Numbered from the stretch's first letter, positions 1,965 to 51,679 are shown. The stretch: DNA of 64,000 nucleotides from Squalus acanthias (GCA_030390025.1 CM059432.1:30444001-30508000); one strand, 5' to 3'. A program made the numbers and translations. The notes: generated from the sequence alone by a model not told the origin.

Positions 1965-3423
1965 CATTTGCCTTTGCCTGTCCTAATGCTCCTATGAAGT
2001 GCTACCCCAGTCGCTGCACAATGGCTGGTGGAAGGCTGCTGACATTCAGTTGGGGAGACTGCAGATGGCCTTGCAGGATGACCTCGAGCAGCTGTGGGCC
2101 ATCAGACCCTGCATCTGGTTGGGTTCACAAGTGCAGTAATGGAGTTGGCCATTAATTCCGTGCTGGAAATCATGGGCTCCAAGCACTGCGCAGAGCCCCG
2201 TGCAGGGTTGGAGCCGGATTCCTCCATGCTCCTTGACATTACACTCAGGCTTTCTGGCAGGCCTGCCAATGCACCTAGCATCTCATTGTGCATACCCTTC
2301 TTCCGTAGGCCACCCCATTGAAGTCCTCATCTGAGTTCTCTGCAGCAGAACTCATGTGTGACCTCGCCCTCTGAGGAGGTGGCACTGGCGATACCCTTTC
2401 CCTCTGCCCTGGCTGCAGGCCACTCATGCCCGGTGTCTCACCACGTACAGTTCCCTCGTCTAACCTATCCTCTAAAGTACGCGGAGTGTCAGTCTCTGAG
2501 CTGGTGGCTGGGATTATGAAATCGAGTGACACTATGTCTTCATGATCACTGTCTTCCTGCTCCTTCACCAGTGCATGGCCAGGTTGCAGTTCTTTGCAAT
2601 CTGAAACGAGAAAGGCACACGGGTACTGTTGTGGTGAGGGGAGGGGGGAAAGCAAGAGATGCATGCTTACACCATCTGCAGCTTATAAGTCAGAAGAGAT
2701 AGTGGGATGAGGGGGAAGTGGGATGTGAGAAGGAGGATTAGGTATGAGGATACCGTCATCTTGAATTGCTTCAGCCCCGCCGCTGGCCACGGGCTCAGCG
2801 ATTGCCCTTCCAAGAATGGCCAGCACCATCTCCTCCAAGTGGGTGAGATTACCCAGGCGCGCCCGTGTCCCTTCGGGTAGCCCCTGCTGGCTCCAATTGT
2901 GAGCCACCTTGTTCTGCAAGAGAAAAGGAAGTGTGTCAGTGAGTGTGGTGCAATGTGTGAGGTGCCTGTCATGGTTGATTGGCTGACAGTTTGTGCAAGA
3001 TGTGAGATGTGGGTGGGGGTCTTGCAGCAGTGGTATGTGTGTGAGGGTGAGGTGAAGCTATGAATGTGAGGTATAAGTCGTGTTTGGTAGCGATTGTTGG
3101 TAGGTGAGTGATGGGGGTGTGGTGCATTGAGCAGTGTGTGAGGCTAGTGGTGGGATATGGCATTTGAAGATGAATTCAATGTCCTTAACCACTCGTGTGA
3201 TGTCATTAAACCTCTTTCTGCACTGCAGCCAAGACCTTGGAGTTACACTGCTGGCATTGACAGCTATGGCCATCTGCTCCCATTGATGTTTTCAATTTTG
3301 CCTGGAGGGTCCCCTGGCCCCTTGTAGAAATTGGACCTCTCTGCTCCTTTCCACCTCCTGCACCAAGGCCTCCAGTGCTGCATCAAAGAACCTTGGTGCA
3401 TAGGCTCTCCCCTGTTGTGACAT
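1965..3423 (-). pseudogene. Harbinger Myb/SANT-like DNA-binding protein gene, 3 exons, decayed
   Basis: ATG at 3423 gives MSQQGRAYAPRFFDAALEALVQEV; then RSWLQCRKRFNDITR; exon 2 NKVAHN...LTHLEEMVLAILG; exon 3 EMLGALAGLPESL..MSRSMEES. Confidence 0.85.
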
Positions 3424-4271: not shown

Positions 4272-5262
4272 ATTCTTTTTTAAATTCGTTTTTATGGGAT
4301 GTGGGCGTCGCTGGCAAAGCCAGCATTTATTGCCCATCCCTAATTGCCCTTGAGAAGGTGGTGGTGAGCCACCTTCTTGAACCGCTGCAGTCCGTGTGGT
4401 GAAGGTACTCCCAGAGTGCTGTTAGTTAGGGAGTTCCAGGATTTTGACCCAGCGACGATGAAAGTCAGGATGATGTGTGACTTGGAGGGGAGCTTGGAGG
4501 TGGTGGTGTTCCCATACGTCTGCTGCCCTTGTCCTTCTAGGTGGTAGTAGTCGTGGGTTTGAGCGGTGCTGCCGAAGAAGCCTTGGCGAGTTGCTGCAGT
4601 GCATCTTGTAGATGGTACACACTGCAGCCATGGTACGCCGGTGGTGGAGGGAGTGGATGTTTAAGGTGGTAGAGGGGGTGCCAATCAAGCGGGCTGATTT
4701 GTCCTGGATGGTGTCGAGCTTCTTGAGTGTTTTTGGAGCTACACTCATCCAGGCAAATGGAGAGTATTCCATCACACTCCTTACTTGTGCCTTGTAGATA
4801 GTAGAAAGGCTTTGGGGAGTCAGGAGGTGAGACACTCACCACAGAATACCTAGCCTCTGACCTGCTCTTGTTGCCACAGTATTTACGTGGCTGGTCCAGT
4901 TAAGTTTCTGGTCAATGGTGATGTTGATGGTGGGGAATTCGGCGATGGTAATGCCATTAAATGTCAAGGGGTGGTGTTTAGACTCTCGCTTGTTGGAGAT
5001 AGTCGTTGCCTGGCACTTGTGTGGCGCGAATGTTACCTGCCACTTATCAGCCCAAGCCGGAATGTCGTCCAGGTCTTGTTGCATGCGGGCATGGACTGCT
5101 TCATTATCTGAGGAGTTGTGAATGGCACTGAACAATGTACAGTCAACAGCGAACATCCCCATTTCTGACCTTATGTTGGAGGGAATCGCTGAAGATTGTG
5201 ACCTTCAATCACTACAACCATCTTCCTTTGTGCTAGGTATTACTCCAGCCAGTAGAGAGTTC
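4272..5262 (-). mobile_element. LINE family B (CR1/L2-group non-LTR retrotransposon), RT C-terminus and 3' tail
   Basis: ORF pieces MFAVDCTLF, WADKWQVTFAPHKCQ, IYKAQVRSVMEYS, LDTIQDK; 3' tail GGGCAATAAATGCTGGC..GCCAGCGACGCCCACATCCC. Confidence 0.9.
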
Positions 5263-8838: not shown

Positions 8839-9029
8839 CAATTCTTTTTCTGTTCAGCAGTTTGCATGTTATTCACCCCAGAAACTCAGCATTCCCAGAT
8901 GCAAAACTAGGAAAATCAACCTTTGTAATCAACCCTATCCCACTCTTGAATTTAAGTACATAATCTAGGCTGACATTTCAAAGCAATACTGAGGGAGTGC
9001 TGCATTGTATTTTGGGTGAGATGTTAAAT

Positions 9030-10715
9030 GTATCCAAAATTGGTTTAGTGGCAGGAGGCAGAGGGTGATGGTCGAAGGTTGTTTTTGTGACTGGAAGCCT
9101 GTGTCCAGTGGTGTACCGCAGGGATCGGTGCTGGGTCCTTTGCTGTTTGTAGTGTACATTAATGATTTAGATATGAATGTAGGAGGTATGATCAGTAAGT
9201 TCGCAGATGACACAAAAATTGGTGGAGTGGTAAATAGCGAGGAGGAAAGCCTCAGGCTACAGGACGATATAGACGGGTTGGTCAGGTGGGCAGAACAGTG
9301 GCAAATGGAATTTAACCCTGAAAAGTGTGAGGTGATGCATTTTGGGAGGACAAACAAGGCAAGGGAATACACAATGAATGGTAGGACCCTAGGAAGGACA
9401 GAGGATCAGAGGGACCTTGGTATGCATGGACATAGATCCCTGAAGGCAGCAGGACAGGTAGATAAGGTGTTTAAAAAGGCATATGGGATACTTGCCTTCA
9501 TTAGCCGAGGCATAGAATATAAGAGCAGGGAGGTTATGATGGAGCTGTACAAAACGCTAGTTAGGCCACAGCTGGAATACTGTGTGCAGTTCTGGTCGCC
9601 ACACTATAAGAAGGATGTGATTGCATTGGAGAGGGTGCAGAGGAGATTCACCAGGATGTTACCTGGGCTGAGCGCTTCAGCTATGAAGAGAGACTGGATA
9701 GGCTGGGGTTGTTTTCCTTAGAGCAGAGAAGGCTGAGGGGGGACCTGATTGAGGTGTACAAAATTATGAGGGGCATAGATAGGGTAGATAGAAAGGAACT
9801 TTTCCCCTTAGTAGAGGGGTCAATAACCAAGGGGCATAGTTTCAAGGTAAGGGGCAGGAGGTTTAGAGGAGATTTGAGGAAAAACTTTTTCACCCAGAGG
9901 GTGGTTGGAATCTGGAACTCACTGCCTGAAAGGGTGGTAGAGGCAGGAACCCTCACATAGAAGATAGAAGATAGGAGCAGGAGTAGGCCATTCGGCCCCT
10001 CTAGCCTGCTCCGCCATTCAATGCGATCATGGCTGATCATCCAAATTCAGAACCCTGTCCCTGCTTTCTCCCCATATCCCTTGATCCCTTTAACCTTAAG
10101 AAATATATCCAACTCCTTCTTGAATATATTTAATGAATTGGCCTCTACTGCCTTCTGTGGTAGAGAATTCCACAGGTTCACCACTCTCTGGGTGAAGAAA
10201 TTCCTCCTCATTTCTGTCCTAAATGGCTTACCCCTTATCCTTAGACTGTGGCCCCTGATTCTGGACTCCCCGACCATCGGGAACATCCTTCCTGCATCTA
10301 GTCTGTCCAGTCCTTTCAGAATTTTATAAGTTTCAATGAGATCCCCTCTCATTCTTCTAAACTCCAGTGAGTATAAGCCCAATCGACCCAATCTCTCATC
10401 ATACATCATTCCTGCCATCCCAGTATCAGCCTGGTGAATCTTCGCTGAACTCCTTCCATGGCAAGAACCTCCTTCCTCAGATAAGGCGACTAAAACTGCA
10501 CACAATACTCAAGATGTGGTCTCACCAAGGTCCTGTACAACTGCAGCAAGGCATTCAAGAAGCATTTAGATGAGTACTTGAAATGCCATAGCATACAAGG
10601 CTACGGACCAAGTGCTGGAAAATGGGATTAAAATAGACAGGGCTTGATGGCTGGCGCGGACACGATGGGCCGAAGGGCCTCTTTCTGTGCTGTATAACTC
10701 TATGACTCTATGACT
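9030..10715 (+). mobile_element. CR1 LINE 3' fragment, interrupted by an inverted CR1
   Basis: [17 protein letters not shown]; (CTATGACT)n tail; nearly identical to the copy at 43160-44250. Confidence 0.95.
9959..10551 (-). mobile_element. CR1 LINE 3' fragment (different subfamily) nested in opposite orientation
   Basis: ORF LYSLEFRRMRGDLIETYKIL...RRNFFTQRVVNLWNSLP; the host CR1 resumes at CATTCAAGAAGC. Confidence 0.92.
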
Positions 10716-31028: not shown

Positions 31029-33956
31029 ATGCAATCTAAATTCCCCATTCACAAACAGTCCCATACCTTATCTTCCCTCTGTTACTGACCATCAAAGCAT
31101 CCTCTTGGCCACAATGCAAAATTAAAGTAAAAATCAAAATAAACATTCCAAACCAAATTTATAAATCAAACCATGCCACATTGCATACAAATGTCAACTA
31201 ATCACACTTGTGCATTCCCGCAGTGCCTGTTTTCCGTGCGCCTTTACCTGTCCCAGTGATCTTACGCAGTGCTACCCCAGTGGCTGCAGCATGGCTGGTG
31301 GGAGGCTGCTGACTTTCAGTGGGGGAGCCTGCAGATGGCCTTGCATGACGACCTCAAGCAGCTCTGGGCCTAGAAGGCCCGGCTTCGGTCTGCACCATCT
31401 CGACATGGGCAGCAGCAGTCTAGACTGGCTGGCTGACAGGCAACAGCAAGGGCACGAGCGGAGTGGCAGGGGTCGGAGGACGAATGCTGTCATCCTGAGA
31501 GAGGACAGCGGGTTTGTGCTCCACGGAGCCACTGCCACTCCCCCAGGACAGCACCGCAGCAATCCTAGTAATCTGTTGGAGGACAGATTGCTGGACTGCT
31601 GTGACACTCTGCAAGCCCCGTTGATCACTGGATCACTGGTAACCGCAAGCACGATGGTAGCAGTCTGAGTTTCAACTGCAACATCCAGACGTTGGATGGC
31701 TTCTACCTATGCTGCAGTGGAAGCTGAGACATCAGCCATCAGACGCTGCATCATGTTTGGGTCCACAAGTGTGCTAATGGAGTTGGCCACCACTTCCATG
31801 CTGGAAAGAATGGGCTCCAAGCTCTGTGCAAAGCCATGTGCCAAGTTGGTGCTGGACTCCTCCATGATCCTTGACATTGCACACGGGCTTTCTGGCAGGC
31901 CTGCCAATGCACCTTTGTGCTAGGTATGACTTCAGCCAGTGGAGAGTTTTCTCCCTGATTCCCATGGACTTCAATATTACTGGGGCTCCTTGATGCCACA
32001 TTTGGTTAGAAGCTACCTTGATGTCAAGGACAGTCACGTTCACCTCACCTCTAGAATTCAGTTCTTTTGTCCATGTTTGGACTAAGGCTGTACTGAGGTT
32101 TGGAGCCGAGTGGTCCTGGCGGAACCCAAACTGAACATCGGTGAGCAGGTTACTGGTGAGTAAGAGCACTGTCGACGACATCTTCCATCACTTCGCTGAT
32201 GATTGAGAGTAGACTGATGGGGCGGTAATTGGTCGGATTGGATTTGTCCTGCTTTTTGTGGACAGGACATACCTGGGCAGTTTTCCACCTTGTCGGGTAG
32301 ATGCCAGTGTTGTAGCTGTACTGGAACAGCTTGGCTAGAGGCGCGGCTAGTTCTGGAGCACAAGTCTTCAGCACGACAGCCGGGATGTTGTTGGGGCCCA
32401 TAGCCTTTGGTCTACCCAGTATGCTCAGCCGTTTCTTGATATCACGTGGAGTGAATCAAATTGGCTGAAGACTGGTTTCTGTGATGGTGGGAACCTCAGG
32501 AGGAGGCCGATATGGATCATCCACTCGGCACTTCTGGTTGAAGATGGTTGCAAATGCTTCAGCCTTGTCTTTTTCAATCACGTGCTGGGCTCCGACATCA
32601 TTGAGGATGGGGATGTTCATGGAGCCTCCTCCTCCCGTTAGTTGTTCAATTGTCCACCACCATTCATGACTGGATGTGACAGGACTGCAAACCTTTGATC
32701 TGATCCGTTGATTGTGGGATCGCTTAGCTCTGTCTATAGCATGCTGCTTCCGCTGTTTAGCATGCATGTAGTTCTGTGTTGAAGCTTCCCCACGTTGGCA
32801 CCTCATTTTTTTTTAGGTACACCTGGTGCTGCTCCTGGCATGCTCTTCTGTACTCCTCATTGAATCAGGGTTGGTCCCCTAGCTTGATTGTAATGGTAGA
32901 GTGAGGGATATGCCGGGCCATGAGGTTACAGATTGTGGTGGAAATAAATTCTGCAGCTGCTGATGGCCCACAGCGCCTCATGGATGCTCAGTTTTGAGTT
33001 GCTAGATCTGTTCTGAATCTATCCCATTTAGCACGGTGGTCGTGCCACACAACACGATGGAGGGTGTCCATAGTGTGAAGACGGGACTTTGTCTCCACAA
33101 GGACTGTGCGCTGGTCACTGCTACCAACGCTGTCATGGACAGATGCATCTGTGACAGGTAGATTGGTGAGGACGAGGACAAGTAGGTTTTTCCCTTGTGT
33201 TGGCTCTCTCACCACCTGCCGCAGGCCTAGTCTGGCAGCTATGTCCTTCAGGACTTGGCCAGTAGTGGTGGTACTGAGCCACTCTTGGTGATGGACATTG
33301 AAGTCCCCCATCCAGAGTACATTCTGTGCCCTTGCTACCCTCTGTGCTTCTTCCAAGTGGTGTTCAACATGGAGGAGTACTGACTCATCTGCTGAGGGAG
33401 GGCAGTAGGTGGTAATCAGCAGGAGGTTTCCTTGCCCATGCTTGACCTGAAGCCATAAGAATTCATGGGGTCTAGAGTCAACGTTGAAGACTCCCAGGGC
33501 CACTCCCTCCCGACTGTGTACCACGTGCCGCCACCTCTGGTGGGTCTGTCCTGCCGATGTGTCAGGACATACCCAGGAATGGTGATGGAGGAGTCTGGGA
33601 TCTTGGCTGAAAGGTATGACTCTGTGAGTATGACTATGTCAGGCTGCTGCTTGACTAGTCTGTGGGACAGCTCTCCCAATTTTGGCACAAGTCCCCAGAT
33701 GTTCGTGAGGAGGACTTTGCAGGGTCGACTGGGCTGGGTGTGCCTTTGTCGTGTCCGAAGCCGGTGCCTACGTCGATGACAGGTGGTCCTTCTGGTTTTA
33801 TTCTTCTTATTGTTTCCCGTAGCGGTTGTGTACAACTGAGTGACATGCTAGGTCATTTCAGAGAGCATGATGCAGAGATGCCGGTGTTGGACTGGGGTGG
33901 ACAAAAATGAGAAGTCGCACAACACCAGGTTATAGTCCAACAGTTTTATTTAAAAT

Positions 33957-33991
33957 TACGAGCTTTCGGAACGCTGCTCCTTCTTCAGGTA
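33957..33991 (-). ncRNA. minimal type I hammerhead ribozyme motif
   Basis: UAC-CUGAAGA-A-GGAGC-AGC-GUUCC-GAAA-GC-UC-GUA. Confidence 0.7.
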
Positions 33992-34153
33992 AAATACAGC
34001 ATTTGACACGTTGGACCCCCTGTGACCCACCTCATTGTCTTAGCTGTACTCTGATGTGTCTTTGATGTAATGCCTCCCTAACAGATTGTATCTCTGCAGA
34101 CAAATTGTTCTCTGTGTATATATACTGTGTAATAGATTCCCTCACTGTACCTG

Positions 34154-34188
34154 TACCTGAAGAAGGAGCGGAGCTCCGAAAGCTCGTA
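34154..34188 (+). ncRNA. minimal type I hammerhead ribozyme motif
   Basis: UAC-CUGAAGA-A-GGAGC-GGA-GCUCC-GAAA-GC-UC-GUA: catalytic core, stem II, stem I (UAC/GUA) and palindromic AGCU stem III. Confidence 0.75.
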
Positions 34189-34207
34189 ATTTTAAATAAA
34201 ACTGTTG

Positions 34208-35099
34208 GGGGGAAAAATTAGGTCGCGCCCCATTTGGGGCGCAAATATCGTCTGGACGCAAATATTAGCGCCTGGCGCTAATTATCGGCACTGACTGGAA
34301 ACTTCACTTTTACCGCCCCGGGAGGTGAGTGGAGCGCTAAATCAGGCGCTGCACACCTGTCTTAAGGCGCAAAGGCCAAGGAGTGAGGCGCTAACTCAGA
34401 GCGCTGGCGAAGCTCATGTAATGTCAGTCAGCAATGGAACACACACACAATGGCACGGGCCAGTTCTTAAAGGGGATGGTTAATCTTGCTTTCCATCCAC
34501 ATCCTGTTCATTGCAGCCTTGAATCTCGGCCTGGAGAGACTTGCACATCAAATGTGCTGGAAAGAACAATGGAGAGTACCAGGCAAAGAGCTCAGAGTGC
34601 AGCTCCCACAGTCTCTGCTAAATCGATACAAGGAATGGCAAATCAAAATGAACCTGCAAAGTGCTGCTCAGTACCCAAAACTCCTTCACACAATGTTGAA
34701 TCTCTCCAGAAGTCTCTCCCTCTCTCTCTCAGAATGCGTAGTTCAAAAATGCCACCAACAATAAAAGACAGGAAGAGGCCCCCTTTAAATAGCGCCCCCC
34801 CCAGCCCCACAGCGATTGATAGCGTTCCAGTCTTCTGGTCGTTGAATGCGCCAGGCGGTAAGGCAGGGGGCGCCACTCAATTTCCGCTCCGGTCGCCACA
34901 AGGGCGTTGCACCATGGAATGACGTCACAATCTGCGCGCGCAGGTGGTCGCAGCGGTAAAGTTTAGCGCCACCGCACAATCTCTAGTTAAGTTCCCGAGC
35001 GGCGCAAACATCGCTGCGCCCGGGCGTTAGCGGCTTTGCGCCCCATTAGCGCCCTCTTAAGGCGCTAACGGGAGGCGCAACCAACTGAATTTTTCCCCC
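34208..35099. mobile_element. Harbinger-type MITE (892 bp), copy 1
   Basis: TIR GGGGGAAAAATT / AATTTTTCCCCC; perfect TTG TSD; near identical to 49704-50596. Confidence 0.95.
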
Positions 35100-35400
35100 T
35101 TGGACTATAACCTGGTGTTGTGCGACTTCTCATTTCAGAGAGCAGTTAAGAGTCAACCACATTGCTGTGGGTCTGGAGTCACATTTAGGCCAGACCAGGT
35201 AAGGATGGCAGATTTCCTTCCCTAAAGGGACATTAGTGAACCAGATGGGTTTTTACGACAATCCGATAGTTTCATGGTCACCATTACTAAAACTAGCTTT
35301 TGTTCCAGATTTATTTACTTAACTGAATTTAAATTCCCCAGCTGCCATCATGGGATTTGAACTCACGTATCTGGATCATAAGAACATAAGAACATAAGAA

Positions 35401-36290
35401 TTTTTTTTAAAATTCATTTAAAAGATGTGGGCATCGTTGGCAAGGCCAGCATTTATTACCCATCCCTAATTGCCCTTGAGAAAGTGGTGGTGAGAAGCCT
35501 TCTTGAACCGCTGCAGTCCGTGTGGTGAAGGTACTCCCACAGTGCTGTTAGGTAGGGAGTTCCAGGATTTTGACCCAGTGACGATGAAGGATCGGCGATA
35601 TACTTCTAAGTCAGGATGGTGTGTGACTTGAAGGGGAACTTGGAGGTGGTGGTGTTCCCATGCGCCTGCTGCCCTTGTCCTTCTAGGTGGAAGAGGTCGC
35701 GGGTTTCGGAGGTGCTACTGAAGAAGCCTTGGCAAGTTGTTGCAGTGCATCTTGTAGATGGTACACACTGCAGCCACGGTACACCGGTGGTGGAGGGAGT
35801 GAATGTTTAAGGTGGTGGATGGGGTGTCAATCAAGCGGGCTGCTTTGTCCTGGATGGTGTTGAACTTTATGAGTGTTGTTGGAGCTGCACTCATCTAGGA
35901 ATGTGGAGAGTATTCCATCACACTCCTGACTTGTGCCTTGTAGATGGTGGAAAGGTTTTGGGGAGTCAGGAGGTGAGACACTCGCCGCAGAATAACCAGC
36001 CTCTGACCTGCTCTTGTAGCCACAATAGTTATGTGGCTGGTCCAGTTAAGTTTCTGGTCAATGGTGACCCTCAGGATGTTGATGCTGGGGGATTCAGCGA
36101 TGGTACTGCCACTGAAAGTCAAGGGGCGGTGGTTAGACTCTCTCTTATTGGAGATAGTTATTGCCTGGCACTTGTGTGGTGCGAATGTTACTTGCCACTT
36201 ATCAGCCCAAGTCTGAATGTTGTCCAGGTCTTGCTGCATGTGGGCAAAGGCTGGTTCATTATCTGGGGAGTTGTGAATGGATCTGAACAC
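35401..36290 (-). mobile_element. LINE family B 3' fragment
   Basis: Homologous to 4272-5150 (WADKWQVTFAPHKCQ, YKAQVRSVMEYS, same 3' tail). Confidence 0.92.
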
Positions 36291-39396: not shown

Positions 39397-39881
39397 GGGC
39401 TATGGTAGCATTGTGGTTATGCTACTGGACTAGATAATCCAGAGGCCTGGACGAATGATTTGGAGATATGAGTGCAAATCCCACCATGGCAGCTGGGGGA
39501 ATTTAAATTCAGTTAATTAAATAAATCTGGAAATAAAAAGCTAGTATCAGTAATGGTAACCATGAAACTACTGGATTGTTGTAAAAACCCATCTGGTTCA
39601 CTAATGTCCTTTAGGGAAGGAAATCTGCCATCTTTACCTGGTCTGGCCTATATGTGACTCCAGATCCACAATGTTGACTGTTAACTGGCCTCTGAAATGG
39701 CAAGCCATCTGGTTGTACCAAACCGCTATGACAAAGTCAGCACTGTGGGAATACCTTCAGCACACGGACTACAGCGGTTCAAGAAGGCGGCTCACCACCA
39801 CCTTCTCAAGGGCAATTAAGGATGGGCAATAAATGCTGGCCTTGCCAGGGATGCCCACATCCCTTGAGCGAATAAATAAAA
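39397..39881 (+). mobile_element. tRNA-derived SINE made of the LINE family B 5' head and 3' tail
   Basis: A box TAGCATTGTGG, anticodon-like stem CTGGA..TCCAG, B-box-like GAGTGCAAATCCC; body matches 35379-35135 and 33867-33819; tail from ~39738 matches 4420-4290. Confidence 0.92.
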
Positions 39882-40069
39882 CCCCCACAATGTTATCAGA
39901 TCAGACCTTCACCCAAGCCTGGTGGGGTGAAGGTCTAGGTAACAGCTTTGCGAGCTTTTAACTTATTATTCCCCTCCTGTACAATTTCCTTTAATTTATT
40001 GCAATGGTTTGAGCATTGTTCTGGACTCGATGGGCCGAATGGCCTCCTTCTGTGCCGTTATGACTCTAT

Positions 40070-49214: not shown

Positions 49215-49703
49215 AGATTGGCTGCAGCAGAAGGTCAGTCTTGCCTCTGAGTCAGAAGGAATTGGGTTCAAGTTCCACTCCAGAGACGTGAGCACCTAAT
49301 GACACCTCAGTGCTGTACTGAGGGAGTGTTGCATTGTCGGAGGTGCCGTCTTTCAGATGAGAGGTTAAAGCGAAGCTACGTCTGTCTCTTGTGTGAACAG
49401 TAAAGGTCCCATAACACTATTCAAAGAAGAGCAGGGGAGTTCTCCATATTTATCCCTCAACCAACATCACGAAAACTGATTATCTGGTCATATCACATTG
49501 CTGTTTGTGGGACCTTGCTCTTCACAAATTGGATGCCGCATTTCCTACATTATAACAATGTCTAACTTCAAAATTTATCTGTAAAGCACTTTGGGATGTC
49601 CCGAGATTATGAAAGACGCTATATCAATAAAAGTTATTTCTTGGTGTAGTTTGGTTTGCCTTCTGAGCTGGACGTAACTGGTGCTATATAAATACAAGTC
49701 TTT
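49215..49703 (+). mobile_element. DeuSINE (SacSINE1-like)
   Basis: GGGTTCAAGTTCCACTCCAGAGAC head; GAAGAGCAGGGGAGTTCTCC core; GCTATATAAATACAAGTCTTT tail. Confidence 0.88.
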
Positions 49704-50596
49704 GGGGGAAAAATTAGGTCGCGCCCCATTTGGGGCGCAAATATCGTCTGGACGCAAATATTAGCGCCTGGCGCTAATTATCGGCACTGACTGGAAACTT
49801 CACTTTTACCGCCCCGGGAGGTGAGTGGAGCGCTAAATCAGGCGCTGCACACCTGTCTTAAGGCGCAAAGGCCAAGGAGTGAGGCGCTACCTCAGAGCGC
49901 TGGCGAAGCTCATGTAATGTCAGTCAGCAATGGAACACACACACAATGGCACGGGCCAGTTCTTAAAGGGGATGGTTAATCTTGCTTTCCATCCACATCC
50001 TGTTCATTGCAGCCTTGAATCTCGGCCTGGAGAGACTTGCACATCAAATGTGCTGGAAAGAACAATGGAGAGTACCAGGCAAAGAGCTCAGAGTGCAGCT
50101 CCCACAGTCTCTGCTAAATCGATACAAGGAATGGCAAATCAAAATGAACCTGCAAAGTGCTGCTCAGTACCCAAAACTCCTTCACACAACGTTGAATCTG
50201 TCCAGAAGTCTCTCCCTCTCTCTCTCAGAATGCGTAGTTCAAAAATGCCACCAACAATAAAAGACAGGAAGAGGCCCCCTTTAAATAGCGCCCCCCCCAG
50301 CCCCACAGCGATTGATAGCGTTCCAGTCTTCTGGTCGTTGGATGCACCAGGCGGTAAGGCAGGGGGCGCCACTCAATTTCCGCTCCGGGGCGCCACAAGG
50401 GCGTTGCACCATGGAATGACGTCACAATCTGCGCGCGCAGGTGGTCGCAGCGGTAAAGTTTAGCGCCGCCGCACAATCTCTAGTTAAGTTCCCGAGCGGC
50501 GCAAACATCGCTGCGCCCGGGCGTTAGCGGCTTTGCGCCCCATTAGCGCCCTCTTAAGACGCTAACGGGAGGCGCAACCAAGTGAATTTTTACCCC
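49704..50596. mobile_element. Harbinger-type MITE (893 bp), copy 2
   Basis: Near identical to 34208-35099; flanks TTT/TAT. Confidence 0.95.
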
Positions 50597-51679
50597 TATG
50601 TTTCTTTAGCTTGGTTACAGCTTGCACTACTCAGCACTAACTGCTGTAACAACGTAAATAGCACCTGATAAGGTCCAAAGTACAAAGTAGCTGACAGATA
50701 ACTCTTCACCTCCGCTGTAGTACAACCACCACCACCCCTTACGACTGTACCTCACTTATCACCATTTATTTTTCAGCTTTTTGACCACACCTACCAAAAA
50801 AATATTCTAAAATATCCAAAATCATCACACACTTCTGCAAAGGAATAGCTAAAGCTTGAGAAATGAATTCATTTTGTACATAGTTGTCGACATTTTAGCG
50901 TCAAATCTATTTGGTTAATATTTCAGTTATCTCTTCTGAACATCACGGGCGTTGCAAATGGAGAGGATAAAACTGCCCGACGCGTAGAGCGGGCAAATCG
51001 CGTTAGCACCAACGCTGTAAGTAGTGTTTACTAGAAATAAATTTAAAATAAAAGAAATAGCAGTGAGCGAATGGGGTCAGAGGAAAACAGGACAAGGAAA
51101 TATAAGCCTGAAATCTACTGTAGCTGATATTAGTGAATGAGATCTTAATGTGGTCTTGCTATTTAAAGCAAGCGTTAGACTATTTTTAAAATAAATGGGT
51201 CAGAATAGCAGGCAAAGGAATGACATACAAAAGCATTGTGTTCACCAACAGACATTTCCGGGCTGGACTGTTTACATTTAGGTTTAGTTAATGTAGCTTT
51301 GGCATGAATTCTGTAGCTTCGGGTTAATATTACAGTAATAAAGCTCACGCTGACACCTGGGCCTCGTGCGCTAAAGGTTACTAATTTGGCGATACCTGTT
51401 TGCGTCTGCAAGAAAGCTGCACATTAGGGTAAATTGTATGATTGGTGTAACACACGTGCATATCAGGAATTGGGCTGCAACTGTCATTAATGGATAGAAA
51501 ACTGGATCCATGACTTTGACATGTGAATTCCCAATATGTGTTGCCATCAAATGAAGCTCTGAAGCGCTAAATTGGAATATTTACTCTTCTGCCTGTTTTG
51601 CTTCGCATGCCTGGTTGAGTTTCAGTTTGGAATTAAAGAGATTCCAGCAAACTTTCTATGGCTGTGTCTCCTTTTGTGT

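What the first reader, a model, noticed from the sequence alone, without database searches (positions are those of the whole stretch)
31916..33867. Family B coding strand contains no TTTT (Pol III terminator) runs
Seen: scanning by eye, the + strand has no AAAA (so the LINE sense strand has no TTTT) across 31916-33867, 4295-5262 or 35430-36290, whereas the opposite run occurs about ten times in 31916-33867 alone. Neighbouring CR1 sense strands have many T4-T6 runs. Exceptions are one run in the head (35289-92, absent from the SINE copy) and the extreme tail of one copy. Established: four or more Ts terminate vertebrate Pol III. Inference: selection for Pol III read-through of a ~3 kb coding unit, a signal independent of the tRNA head.
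Basis: partly seen in the sequence, partly recalled or inferred. Interest (0 to 1): 0.82.

Follow-up and report, generated by a model that had tools for sequence, protein, structure and literature searches.

The report
SINE-headed shark LINE purged of T-runs
A 3.3-kb jumping gene of a cartilaginous-fish genome starts with the kind of promoter head that short SINE elements use and has almost no runs of T on its coding strand, which fits, but does not prove, transcription of a whole protein-coding element by RNA polymerase III.

Summary
The + strand has no AAAA in 31916-33867, 4295-5262 or 35430-36290. The sense strand is the minus strand.

All three stretches belong to one LINE family of about 3.3 kb. 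From 5' to 3' it has a SINE-type head with A- and B-box motifs, one endonuclease plus reverse-transcriptase frame, and a tail shared with a SINE.

In 30 genomic copies (91 kb) there are 14 T4+ runs at 12 sites, and no site is shared by more than 2 copies. The majority sequence (3306 nt) has none.

Zero T4+ is weak evidence on its own: P=0.02 for base shuffles, 0.10 for synonymous-codon shuffles, 0.20 for dinucleotide shuffles. The wider purge of T tracts is strong and strand-specific:
- TTT: 7 against 24.9 expected.
- Pentamers with at least 4 T: 1 against 20.5. The matching A-rich pentamers: 80 against 79.8.
- NNT|TNN codon junctions: 8 against 24.9±4.1.

Two other LINE families of this genome and 73 distant relatives show no such purge.

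Selection against Pol III termination is the best reading (about 0.55). No transcript data could be obtained, and no close headless relative was available. My literature searches found no Pol III-driven LINE.

The parts
31912..33867 (-). Family B copy 2, body: unit positions 291-2238 (endonuclease and the first part of the reverse transcriptase). 3'-truncated. No sense-strand T4+.
   Evidence: Pfam domains on sister copies.
33868..35130 (.). Unrelated repeat inserted into copy 2 between its head and its body. Parts of it recur at 49689-50597 with 98% identity.
   Evidence: D6, D11.
35131..35382 (-). Family B copy 2, SINE-type 5' part: unit positions 54-304. The first 53 nt, which include box A, are missing. 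It carries the single-copy TTTT at 35289-35292.
35401..36290 (-). Family B copy 1, 3' part: unit positions 2401 to the end (C-terminal part of the reverse transcriptase plus the tail). It ends in ...GAATTTTAAAAAAAA.
4275..5257 (-). Family B copy 3, 3' part: unit positions 2206-3288 (C-terminal part of the reverse transcriptase plus the tail). No T4+.
39402..39876 (+). Partner SINE: unit 4-346 joined directly to unit 3144-3282. This is the family B unit without its ORF.
   Evidence: (I13, I14). The same kind of joint appears in four other runs (table 5).

Best explanation
Family B is a single-ORF non-LTR retrotransposon of about 3.3 kb. Its full-length copies begin with the head of its partner SINE (box A and box B motifs) and end with the SINE's tail. 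Its sense strand has been purged of T tracts. I read this purge as selection against RNA polymerase III termination signals, both T4+ and weaker T-rich stretches, in an element whose template RNA starts at the internal promoter in the head and must run through about 3.3 kb.

Shown here:
- the anatomy of the element;
- the shared 5' ends of the copies;
- a strand-specific purge of T tracts that goes beyond codon usage;
- the absence of such a purge in other LINEs.

Inferred, not shown:
- that the head works as a promoter;
- that Pol III makes the long RNA;
- that the variable T-run at the very 3' end (T0-5 followed by A5-9) marks Pol III termination followed by A-tailing.
For: Anatomy
- Copies share a unit of about 3280 nt.
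- 16 of 30 copies start within 11 nt of one point, 8 nt before TAGCATAGTGG. That motif fits the box A consensus TRGCNNAGTGG as I recall it. GAGTTCAAATCC follows 52 nt later and fits 9 of 11 positions of the recalled box B consensus.
- Endonuclease and reverse-transcriptase domains are present.
- The majority sequence has one open frame of 970 codons.
- The SINE at 39402-39876 equals the two ends of the unit.

T purge
- 30 copies: 14 T4+ in 91,030 nt at 12 sites, none shared by more than 2 copies. In the region of the finding: 3 T4+ in 57,106 nt against 68 expected.
- Majority sequence: T4+ 0 against 3.9; TT 90 against 127; TTT 7 against 24.9. A, C and G runs are near expectation.
- T-rich pentamers 1 against 20.5; A-rich pentamers 80 against 79.8.
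- NNT|TNN junctions 8 against 24.9±4.1, with 0 of 5000 shuffles as low.
- Phe makes up 1.9% of codons, and TTC outnumbers TTT 15 to 3.

Specificity
- Comparator C1: T 22.1%, T4+ 16 against 4.8 expected.
- Comparator C2: T 22.9%, T4+ 6 against 3.3 expected.
- 73 relatives: TTT observed/expected is at least 0.69, against 0.28 here. Their T-rich pentamer ratio has a minimum of 0.30 and a median of 1.14, against 0.05 here and 0.04-0.29 in eight single full-length copies.

Tail
- T-runs recur only at the extreme 3' end, and 4 of 18 tails have T4 or longer.
- AATAAA lies at positions 3251 and 3294 of 3306.
Against: - No transcript evidence. No run is on record as RNA, and the contigs I laid behave like DNA.
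- Zero T4+ is not significant against dinucleotide or codon nulls (P=0.20 and 0.10).
- TTT and TT are depleted too, which selection against T4+ alone does not predict. Weak interrupted terminators have to be invoked to explain this.
- ARAGORN and Rfam find no tRNA in the head, even after one copy of its 21-nt duplication is removed.
- No proposed Pol III-driven retroelement exceeds about 1.3 kb, according to passages of PMC10886601.
- An uncapped Pol III RNA would have to be translated, and the frame has no in-frame ATG before codon 283.
- Only 4 of 18 tails have T4 or longer.
- No close headless relative was available as a control. The nearest, L079, is 36% identical in protein.
Confidence: 0.55

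Rival explanations
1. The T-tract deficit is a lineage-specific feature of composition or RNA biology that has nothing to do with Pol III. Examples are an inherited codon-context bias, or avoidance of U-tract-binding host factors. On this reading the SINE-type head is just an acquired 5' UTR and the element is transcribed by Pol II like other LINEs.
For: - TT and TTT are depleted as well as T4+. Under a dinucleotide null only 1.46 T4+ are expected.
- T content is low overall, at 19.6%.
- The most similar short relatives from metagenomes also tend to be T-poor, with few T-runs: L119 has 0 T4+ in 1333 nt and a pentamer ratio of 0.30.
- No tRNA is detected in the head.
- LINEs are stated to be Pol II-transcribed in PMC10886601 (passages).
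Against: - The deficit is strand- and base-specific: A-runs are normal.
- It goes beyond codon usage.
- It is more extreme than in all 75 comparator lineages.
- The nearest relative with a near-full ORF, L079, shows no deficit: 14 T4+ against 13.75 expected.
- The deficit sits in an element whose 5' end is a SINE head with box A at the position expected for a Pol III start.
Confidence: 0.3
2. The long head-ORF-tail units are not a self-propagating lineage. They are chimeras of SINE RNA and LINE RNA, or a non-autonomous offshoot copied in trans, and the T-poor body simply reflects the parent LINE.
For: - SINE forms outnumber long forms. In the laid contigs, head and tail depth is 5-40 times the depth of the 5' ORF.
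- There is no in-frame ATG ahead of the endonuclease domain.
Against: - All 30 long copies have the same head-ORF junction.
- The first look found 24,862 candidates for the 5' body.
- The majority sequence keeps a 970-codon open frame.
- No copy in the sample has a different 5' end.
- This rival does not explain why the parent would lack T tracts.
Confidence: 0.1
3. Chance combined with low T content.
For: P(0 T4+) is 0.10-0.20 under the codon and dinucleotide nulls. The three window stretches are copies of one family, not three independent trials.
Against: - TTT: P=0.001.
- T-rich pentamers: P=0.004.
- T|T junctions: 0 of 5000 shuffles as low.
- The family is an outlier among 75 comparator lineages.
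Confidence: 0.05

Closest known systems
SINE/LINE pairs with a common tail. In cartilaginous fishes: SacSINE1 (tRNA head, Deu domain, tail like the L2-2_CM LINE), as described in PMC5499810 (passages read).
   Same: A SINE with an A/B-box head shares its 3' tail of about 140 nt with a LINE of the same genome.
   Different: Here the LINE also carries the SINE's whole 5' part (346 nt, head included) at its own 5' end. I could not compare the sequence with SacSINE1 or L2-2_CM, so identity with them is a guess from recall.
Bipartite (5' end plus 3' end) non-autonomous LINE derivatives and SINEs built from them, such as Bov-tA and the RTE- and Vingi-derived SINE bodies: Kojima 2018, PMC5786205 (abstract and passages).
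   Same: The SINE equals the two ends of the LINE with the ORF deleted.
   Different: In that paper the tRNA-derived head is added to the short derivative, the LINE itself is taken to be Pol II-transcribed, and only RTE and Vingi are reported as donors. Here the full-length coding element carries the head.
TRIMp3 elements (Cassandra, Helenus, Ajax): LTR retroelements with promoters derived from small-RNA genes. PMC10886601 (passages).
   Same: A retroelement other than a SINE that carries a Pol III-type internal promoter.
   Different: Those elements are non-coding and 311-1263 bp long, and the paper ascribes that length limit to Pol III processivity. Family B is 3.3 kb and codes for its own endonuclease and reverse transcriptase.
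T+ SINEs of mammals (B2, Dip, Ves), with AATAAA, a Pol III terminator and an A-tail at the 3' end. PMC8466645 (start of the abstract only, as shown in the listing).
   Same: AATAAA lies near the end, followed by a T-run and then an A-run.
   Different: Here the T-run is T4 or longer in only 4 of 18 tails. Polyadenylation is untested, and the host is not a mammal.

Membership tests
Non-LTR retrotransposon (LINE) with an APE-type endonuclease | Endonuclease and reverse-transcriptase domains in one sense-strand frame | tested here: met
   Pfam Exo_endo_phos_2 (E=2e-10), Exo_endo_phos (E=4.5e-4, 20.5 bits, below the curated cut-off of 24.5) and RVT_1 (E=8e-35) on unaltered translations of L002 and L020. 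The majority sequence has a 970-codon open frame.
Non-LTR retrotransposon (LINE) with an APE-type endonuclease | Common 3' end with variable 5' truncation among copies | tested here: met
   First aligned unit positions run from 1 to 799, while 3' ends cluster at 3267-3281. Contig depth rises from 5' to 3' in four runs.
Non-LTR retrotransposon (LINE) with an APE-type endonuclease | Target-site duplications | tested here: inconclusive
   The flanks of 11 full-length copies were printed. No clear duplication was seen by eye, and no formal search was made.
SINE2-type (tRNA-derived) head | Box A and box B motifs at tRNA-like positions | tested here: met
   TAGCATAGTGG starts at unit position 9, and GAGTTCAAATCC follows 52 nt later. 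The consensus motifs are recalled, not taken from a tool.
SINE2-type (tRNA-derived) head | Recognisable as a tRNA by sequence and structure | tested here: not met
   ARAGORN finds nothing in the window or in 9 loci. Rfam finds no tRNA match at E<=1. ARAGORN is still negative after one copy of the 21-nt duplicated arm is removed. The fold has a z-score of -1.5.
Pol III type-2 transcription unit | No internal T4+ between the start and the terminator | tested here: met
   0 T4+ in the 3306-nt majority sequence. In 30 copies, 14 runs at 12 sites, none shared by more than 2 copies.
Pol III type-2 transcription unit | T-run terminator at the 3' end | tested here: inconclusive
   The tails read GAA + T(0-5) + A(5-9). 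T is 4 or longer in 4 of 18 tails.
Pol III type-2 transcription unit | Transcript made by Pol III (inhibitor profile, 5'-triphosphate end, Pol III/TFIIIC occupancy) | not testable with these tools
   No run is on record as RNA. The laid runs are contigs.
L2 clade / Deu-SINE partner (SacSINE1 with L2-2_CM) | Sequence similarity to the named consensus sequences, and placement of the reverse transcriptase in a phylogeny | not tested
The best protein relatives are unnamed contigs at 42% identity or less.

The most novel reading that the evidence does not exclude
Family B is an autonomous, protein-coding retrotransposon whose whole 3.3-kb template RNA is made by RNA polymerase III. Transcription starts at a SINE-type internal promoter, ends at a T-run at the element's own 3' end, and the RNA is then A-tailed. 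That would make it the first Pol III-driven LINE. It would be about three times longer than any proposed Pol III retroelement, and it would be the direct parent of its SINE by simple loss of the ORF.
Probability: 0.4. Interest if true: 0.9.

Novelty: new variant of a known kind. Interest (0 to 1): 0.74.

Why it matters
LINEs are taken to be Pol II-transcribed and SINEs Pol III-transcribed. The short length of SINEs and of TRIMp3 elements is ascribed to Pol III processivity (passages of PMC10886601). A coding element of 3.3 kb with a SINE head and a sense strand cleared of T tracts challenges that division.

It also gives a concrete route for the birth of a SINE: the head is already on the LINE, and the ORF is then lost. 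And it raises the question of how an uncapped RNA, whose frame lacks an upstream AUG, would be translated. The T-tract statistics used here (pentamers with at least 4 T, T|T codon junctions) are a cheap way to screen other genomes for more such elements.

Tried and rejected
- RNA evidence: no RNA holder is listed. The four runs I laid (X1, X4, X9, X10) are short contigs, and their depth pattern looks like DNA. They give no starts, ends or strand.
A smaller request for 8 stretches was served.
- tRNA detection in the head: negative with ARAGORN and Rfam, also after removing one copy of the duplicated arm.
- Close headless relatives in this genome: a tblastn of about 300 kb of held sequence found only family B copies and families at 40% identity or less.
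- Nucleotide similarity of the head or tail to the 80 metagenome loci: none.
- Variants seen in four other runs: of the 40 displayed rows (281 more were not shown), the 5 changes to T create no T4+. This covers too little to count as evidence.
- Earlier notes of this scan: none on this element.
- Literature: searches found no description of a Pol III-transcribed or tRNA-headed LINE. The library misses most subscription journals and Repbase.
- Rejected: general avoidance of homopolymers, for example through slippage. A, C and G runs are near expectation.
- Rejected: avoidance of internal priming on A-runs. A-runs are not depleted.

Full report
**1. The observation**

On the + strand there is no AAAA in 31916-33867 (1952 nt), 4295-5262 or 35430-36290, while TTTT or longer occurs 10 times in the first stretch. 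The coding sense is the minus strand: endonuclease and reverse-transcriptase pieces read on it. So the LINE sense strand has no T4+ in these stretches.

Each is a change in one copy only. One is in the head of the window copy (35289-92). The other is in the extreme tail of the copy ending at 35401.

**2. What the thing is**

The window lies in a 3.7-Gb genome. A protein hit names a shark, and earlier notes of this scan call it a cartilaginous-fish genome.

A search with the 1952-nt stretch gave 24,862 first-look candidates, and I took 30 loci. Comparing all copies with each other shows a unit of about 3280 nt. Its parts, from 5' to 3':

- **Head and 5' part, about 330 nt.** It opens with GGGAATGGTAGCATAGTGG.... 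This holds a perfect match to the box A consensus as I recall it. A 9-of-11 match to the recalled box B consensus follows 52 nt later, and between the two lies a 21-nt tandem duplication of a hairpin arm.
- **One open frame.** It is 970 codons long in the majority sequence of the 30 copies. It carries APE-type endonuclease and RVT_1 domains.
- **Tail.** It ends in ...CCCACATCCCATGAACGAA, then T(0-5), then A(5-9).

Of the 30 copies, 16 begin within 11 nt of the same first base and the rest are 5'-truncated.

The SINE at window 39402-39876 is unit 4-346 joined to unit 3144-3282, that is, the unit without its ORF. Joints of this kind are seen in contigs of four other runs.

In the window:
- Copy 2 is split by an unrelated insertion. 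Its head is at 35382->35131 and its body at 33867->31912.
- Copy 1 (36290->35401) and copy 3 (5257->4275) are 3' parts.

Neither ARAGORN nor Rfam calls a tRNA in the head. 'tRNA-derived' therefore rests on the box motifs alone.

**3. How strong the T depletion is**

Across the copies:
- In the region of the finding, 30 copies have 3 T4+ in 57,106 nt, against 68 expected from base composition. A4+ is 337 against 280 expected.
- Over the whole unit there are 14 T4+ in 91,030 nt at 12 sites, and none is shared by more than two copies. An earlier count over slightly different segments gave 12 in 91,374 nt. The runs present are therefore decay after insertion.

In the majority sequence (3306 nt; the copies lie 4.3% from it on average; it was not printed):

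| Measure | Observed | Expected from base composition |
|---|---|---|
| T content | 19.6% | - |
| T4+ | 0 | 3.9 |
| TT | 90 | 127 |
| TTT | 7 | 24.9 |
| A4+ | 14 | 14.8 |
| C4+ | 11 | 16.9 |
| G4+ | 9 | 7.3 |

Controls for zero T4+:

| Null model | Expected T4+ | P(0) |
|---|---|---|
| Base shuffle, whole unit | 3.95 | 0.0185 |
| Dinucleotide shuffle, whole unit | 1.46 | 0.20 |
| Synonymous-codon shuffle, ORF | 1.92 | 0.098 |
| Codon-order shuffle, ORF | 1.79 | 0.14 |

So the headline count is weak by itself. More sensitive measures are not weak:
- TTT in the ORF: 5 against 13.4±3.0 under synonymous shuffles, P=0.001.
- Pentamers with at least 4 T, whole unit: 1 against 20.5 expected from composition. 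A-rich pentamers: 80 against 79.8.
- The same T-rich pentamers in the ORF: 1 against 9.5±3.7 under synonymous shuffles, P=0.004.
- Codon junctions NNT|TNN: 8 against 24.9±4.1. The lowest of 5000 shuffles was 11. The same junction test for A, C and G gives 51 against 61.9, 114 against 99.5 and 74 against 71.7.
- Phe makes up 1.9% of codons, and TTC outnumbers TTT 15 to 3.

The purge is thus specific to T, specific to the sense strand, and partly independent of protein sequence and codon usage.

**4. Do other LINEs show it?**

No, as far as I could test.
- **Fragments in the window.** Seven fragments of other LINE families have 1-10 T4+ each. Six of the seven are at or above expectation from composition, and other3 (7 against 7.46) is just below.
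- **Comparator C1.** This is a young CR1-like family: 29 copies at 96-98% identity, with variable 5' truncation and a tail of 8-mer repeats. Its 2596-nt majority sequence has an 837-codon open frame. T is 22.1%, T4+ 16 against 4.8, TTT 52 against 27.9, T-rich pentamers 53 against 25.3, TTT:TTC 17:18, and T|T junctions 34 against 27.5.
- **Comparator C2.** Nine copies lie 3.2% from their majority sequence, an age like that of family B. T is 22.9%, T4+ 6 against 3.3, and T-rich pentamers 21 against 17.4.
- **Distant relatives.** 73 of 80 fetched metagenome loci passed the cut of at least 900 nt of coding match with no N; they are 23-40% identical in protein. Together they have 896 T4+ against 718 expected. 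Only 1 of the 73 has none (L119, 1333 nt). Their lowest TTT observed/expected ratio is 0.69, against 0.28 in family B. Their lowest T-rich pentamer ratio is 0.30 and the median is 1.14, against 0.05 for the family B majority sequence and 0.04-0.29 for eight single full-length copies.
- **Nearest relative with a near-full frame.** L079 (36% identity) has 14 T4+ against 13.75 expected.

The limit of this control is distance. No relative closer than about 40% protein identity could be had as DNA. The best protein hits are unnamed contigs at 42% or less, apart from an 85%-identical piece inside a shark protein annotated as an aldo-keto reductase. About 300 kb of this genome held no intermediate family.

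**5. Mechanism**

The best reading is selection against Pol III termination. The chain of reasoning is:
- The element's RNA must start at the first base of a SINE-type head, because that is where full-length copies begin. Box A sits 8 nt in, as in tRNA genes (recalled knowledge).
- Vertebrate Pol III stops at T4+, and interrupted T-rich stretches can act as weak stops (recalled).
- Over 3.3 kb even weak stops would add up. That would explain why TTT and pentamers with 4 of 5 T are purged, and not only T4+.
- The only place where T-runs recur is the last few bases, followed by an A-run, with AATAAA at 3251 and 3294 of 3306. This arrangement recalls the T+ SINEs of mammals (start of the abstract of PMC8466645, as listed). 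It is thin evidence, since only 4 of 18 tails have T4 or longer.

All of this is inference. No step of transcription was observed.

Points against:
- The length is far beyond any proposed Pol III retroelement. Those reach 1263 bp at most (passages of PMC10886601).
- A long frame would have to be translated from an uncapped RNA.
- The frame has no in-frame ATG before codon 283. This may instead point to unconventional initiation or to dependence on proteins supplied in trans.

**6. Comparison with what is known, and novelty**

SINE/LINE pairs with a common tail are textbook. In cartilaginous fishes SacSINE1 pairs with an L2-type tail (PMC5499810, passages). I could not test identity with it.

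Kojima 2018 (PMC5786205, abstract and passages) derives SINE bodies from LINE derivatives made of the 5' and 3' ends. In that paper the head is added to the short form, and only RTE and Vingi are named as donors.

Five literature searches found no LINE with a SINE head or with Pol III transcription. The library lacks Repbase and most subscription journals.

I file this as a new variant of a known kind. If Pol III transcription were shown, it would be a new kind of element.

**7. Verdict**

| Question | Verdict |
|---|---|
| Observation | Confirmed, and extended to the whole family |
| Best explanation (Pol III read-through constraint) | 0.55 |
| Composition or RNA-biology bias unrelated to Pol III | 0.30 |
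| Non-self-propagating chimera | 0.10 |
| Chance | 0.05 |

Noticed in passing
window 39402-39876 (+): The partner SINE is exactly the family B unit with the ORF removed: unit 4-346 joined to unit 3144-3282. Contigs of four other runs show several slightly different joints of the same kind.
   Followed up: partly
3' ends of L003-L033 copies; window 35401-35421, 4275-4295 and 39864-39885: The element ends in GAA + T(0-5) + A(5-9). The T-run is T4 or longer in 4 of 18 tails. AATAAA lies at 3251 and 3294 of the 3306-nt majority sequence. This looks like the terminator-plus-A-tail arrangement of mammalian T+ SINEs.
   Followed up: partly
family B majority sequence, nt 330-1178 (window about 33830-32980, minus strand): The 970-codon frame has no in-frame ATG before codon 283, so no ATG precedes the endonuclease domain. 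The nearest upstream ATG, at nt 358, is in another frame and opens only 48 codons.
   Followed up: partly
L012:1238-1279 (head of family B): The head holds a 21-nt tandem duplication of a hairpin arm (CTGGACTA...TCCAGAG) between the box A and box B motifs. Tools call no tRNA there, with or without one copy of the duplication.
   Followed up: yes
window 35383-35400 (minus strand): Three copies of TTCTTATG lie between the tail of copy 1 and the truncated head of copy 2. This is a CR1-like 8-mer repeat at the junction of two family B copies.
   Followed up: no
window 33868-35130 and 49689-50597: The repeat inserted into copy 2 recurs 15.5 kb away at 98% identity (300-nt and 210-nt blocks). It is either a very young element or a local duplication.
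   Followed up: no
window 9029-9727; L032-L060: A very young CR1-like LINE: 28,252 first-look candidates, copies 96-98% alike, an 837-codon open frame in the majority sequence, and a tail of ACTCTATG repeats. It may have been active recently.
   Followed up: partly
P0010: A shark (Heptranchias perlo) protein annotated as aldo-keto reductase family 1 member B1-like carries an 85%-identical piece of the family B reverse transcriptase. The gene model has probably absorbed a repeat, and the family is present in that shark too.
   Followed up: no
L119 (metagenome contig, 2037 nt): This is the only one of 73 distant LINE relatives with no T4+, and it has the lowest T-rich pentamer ratio (0.30). It is among the most similar to family B (38% in protein). 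The contig lacks the element's 5' end, so whether it has a head is unknown.
   Followed up: partly
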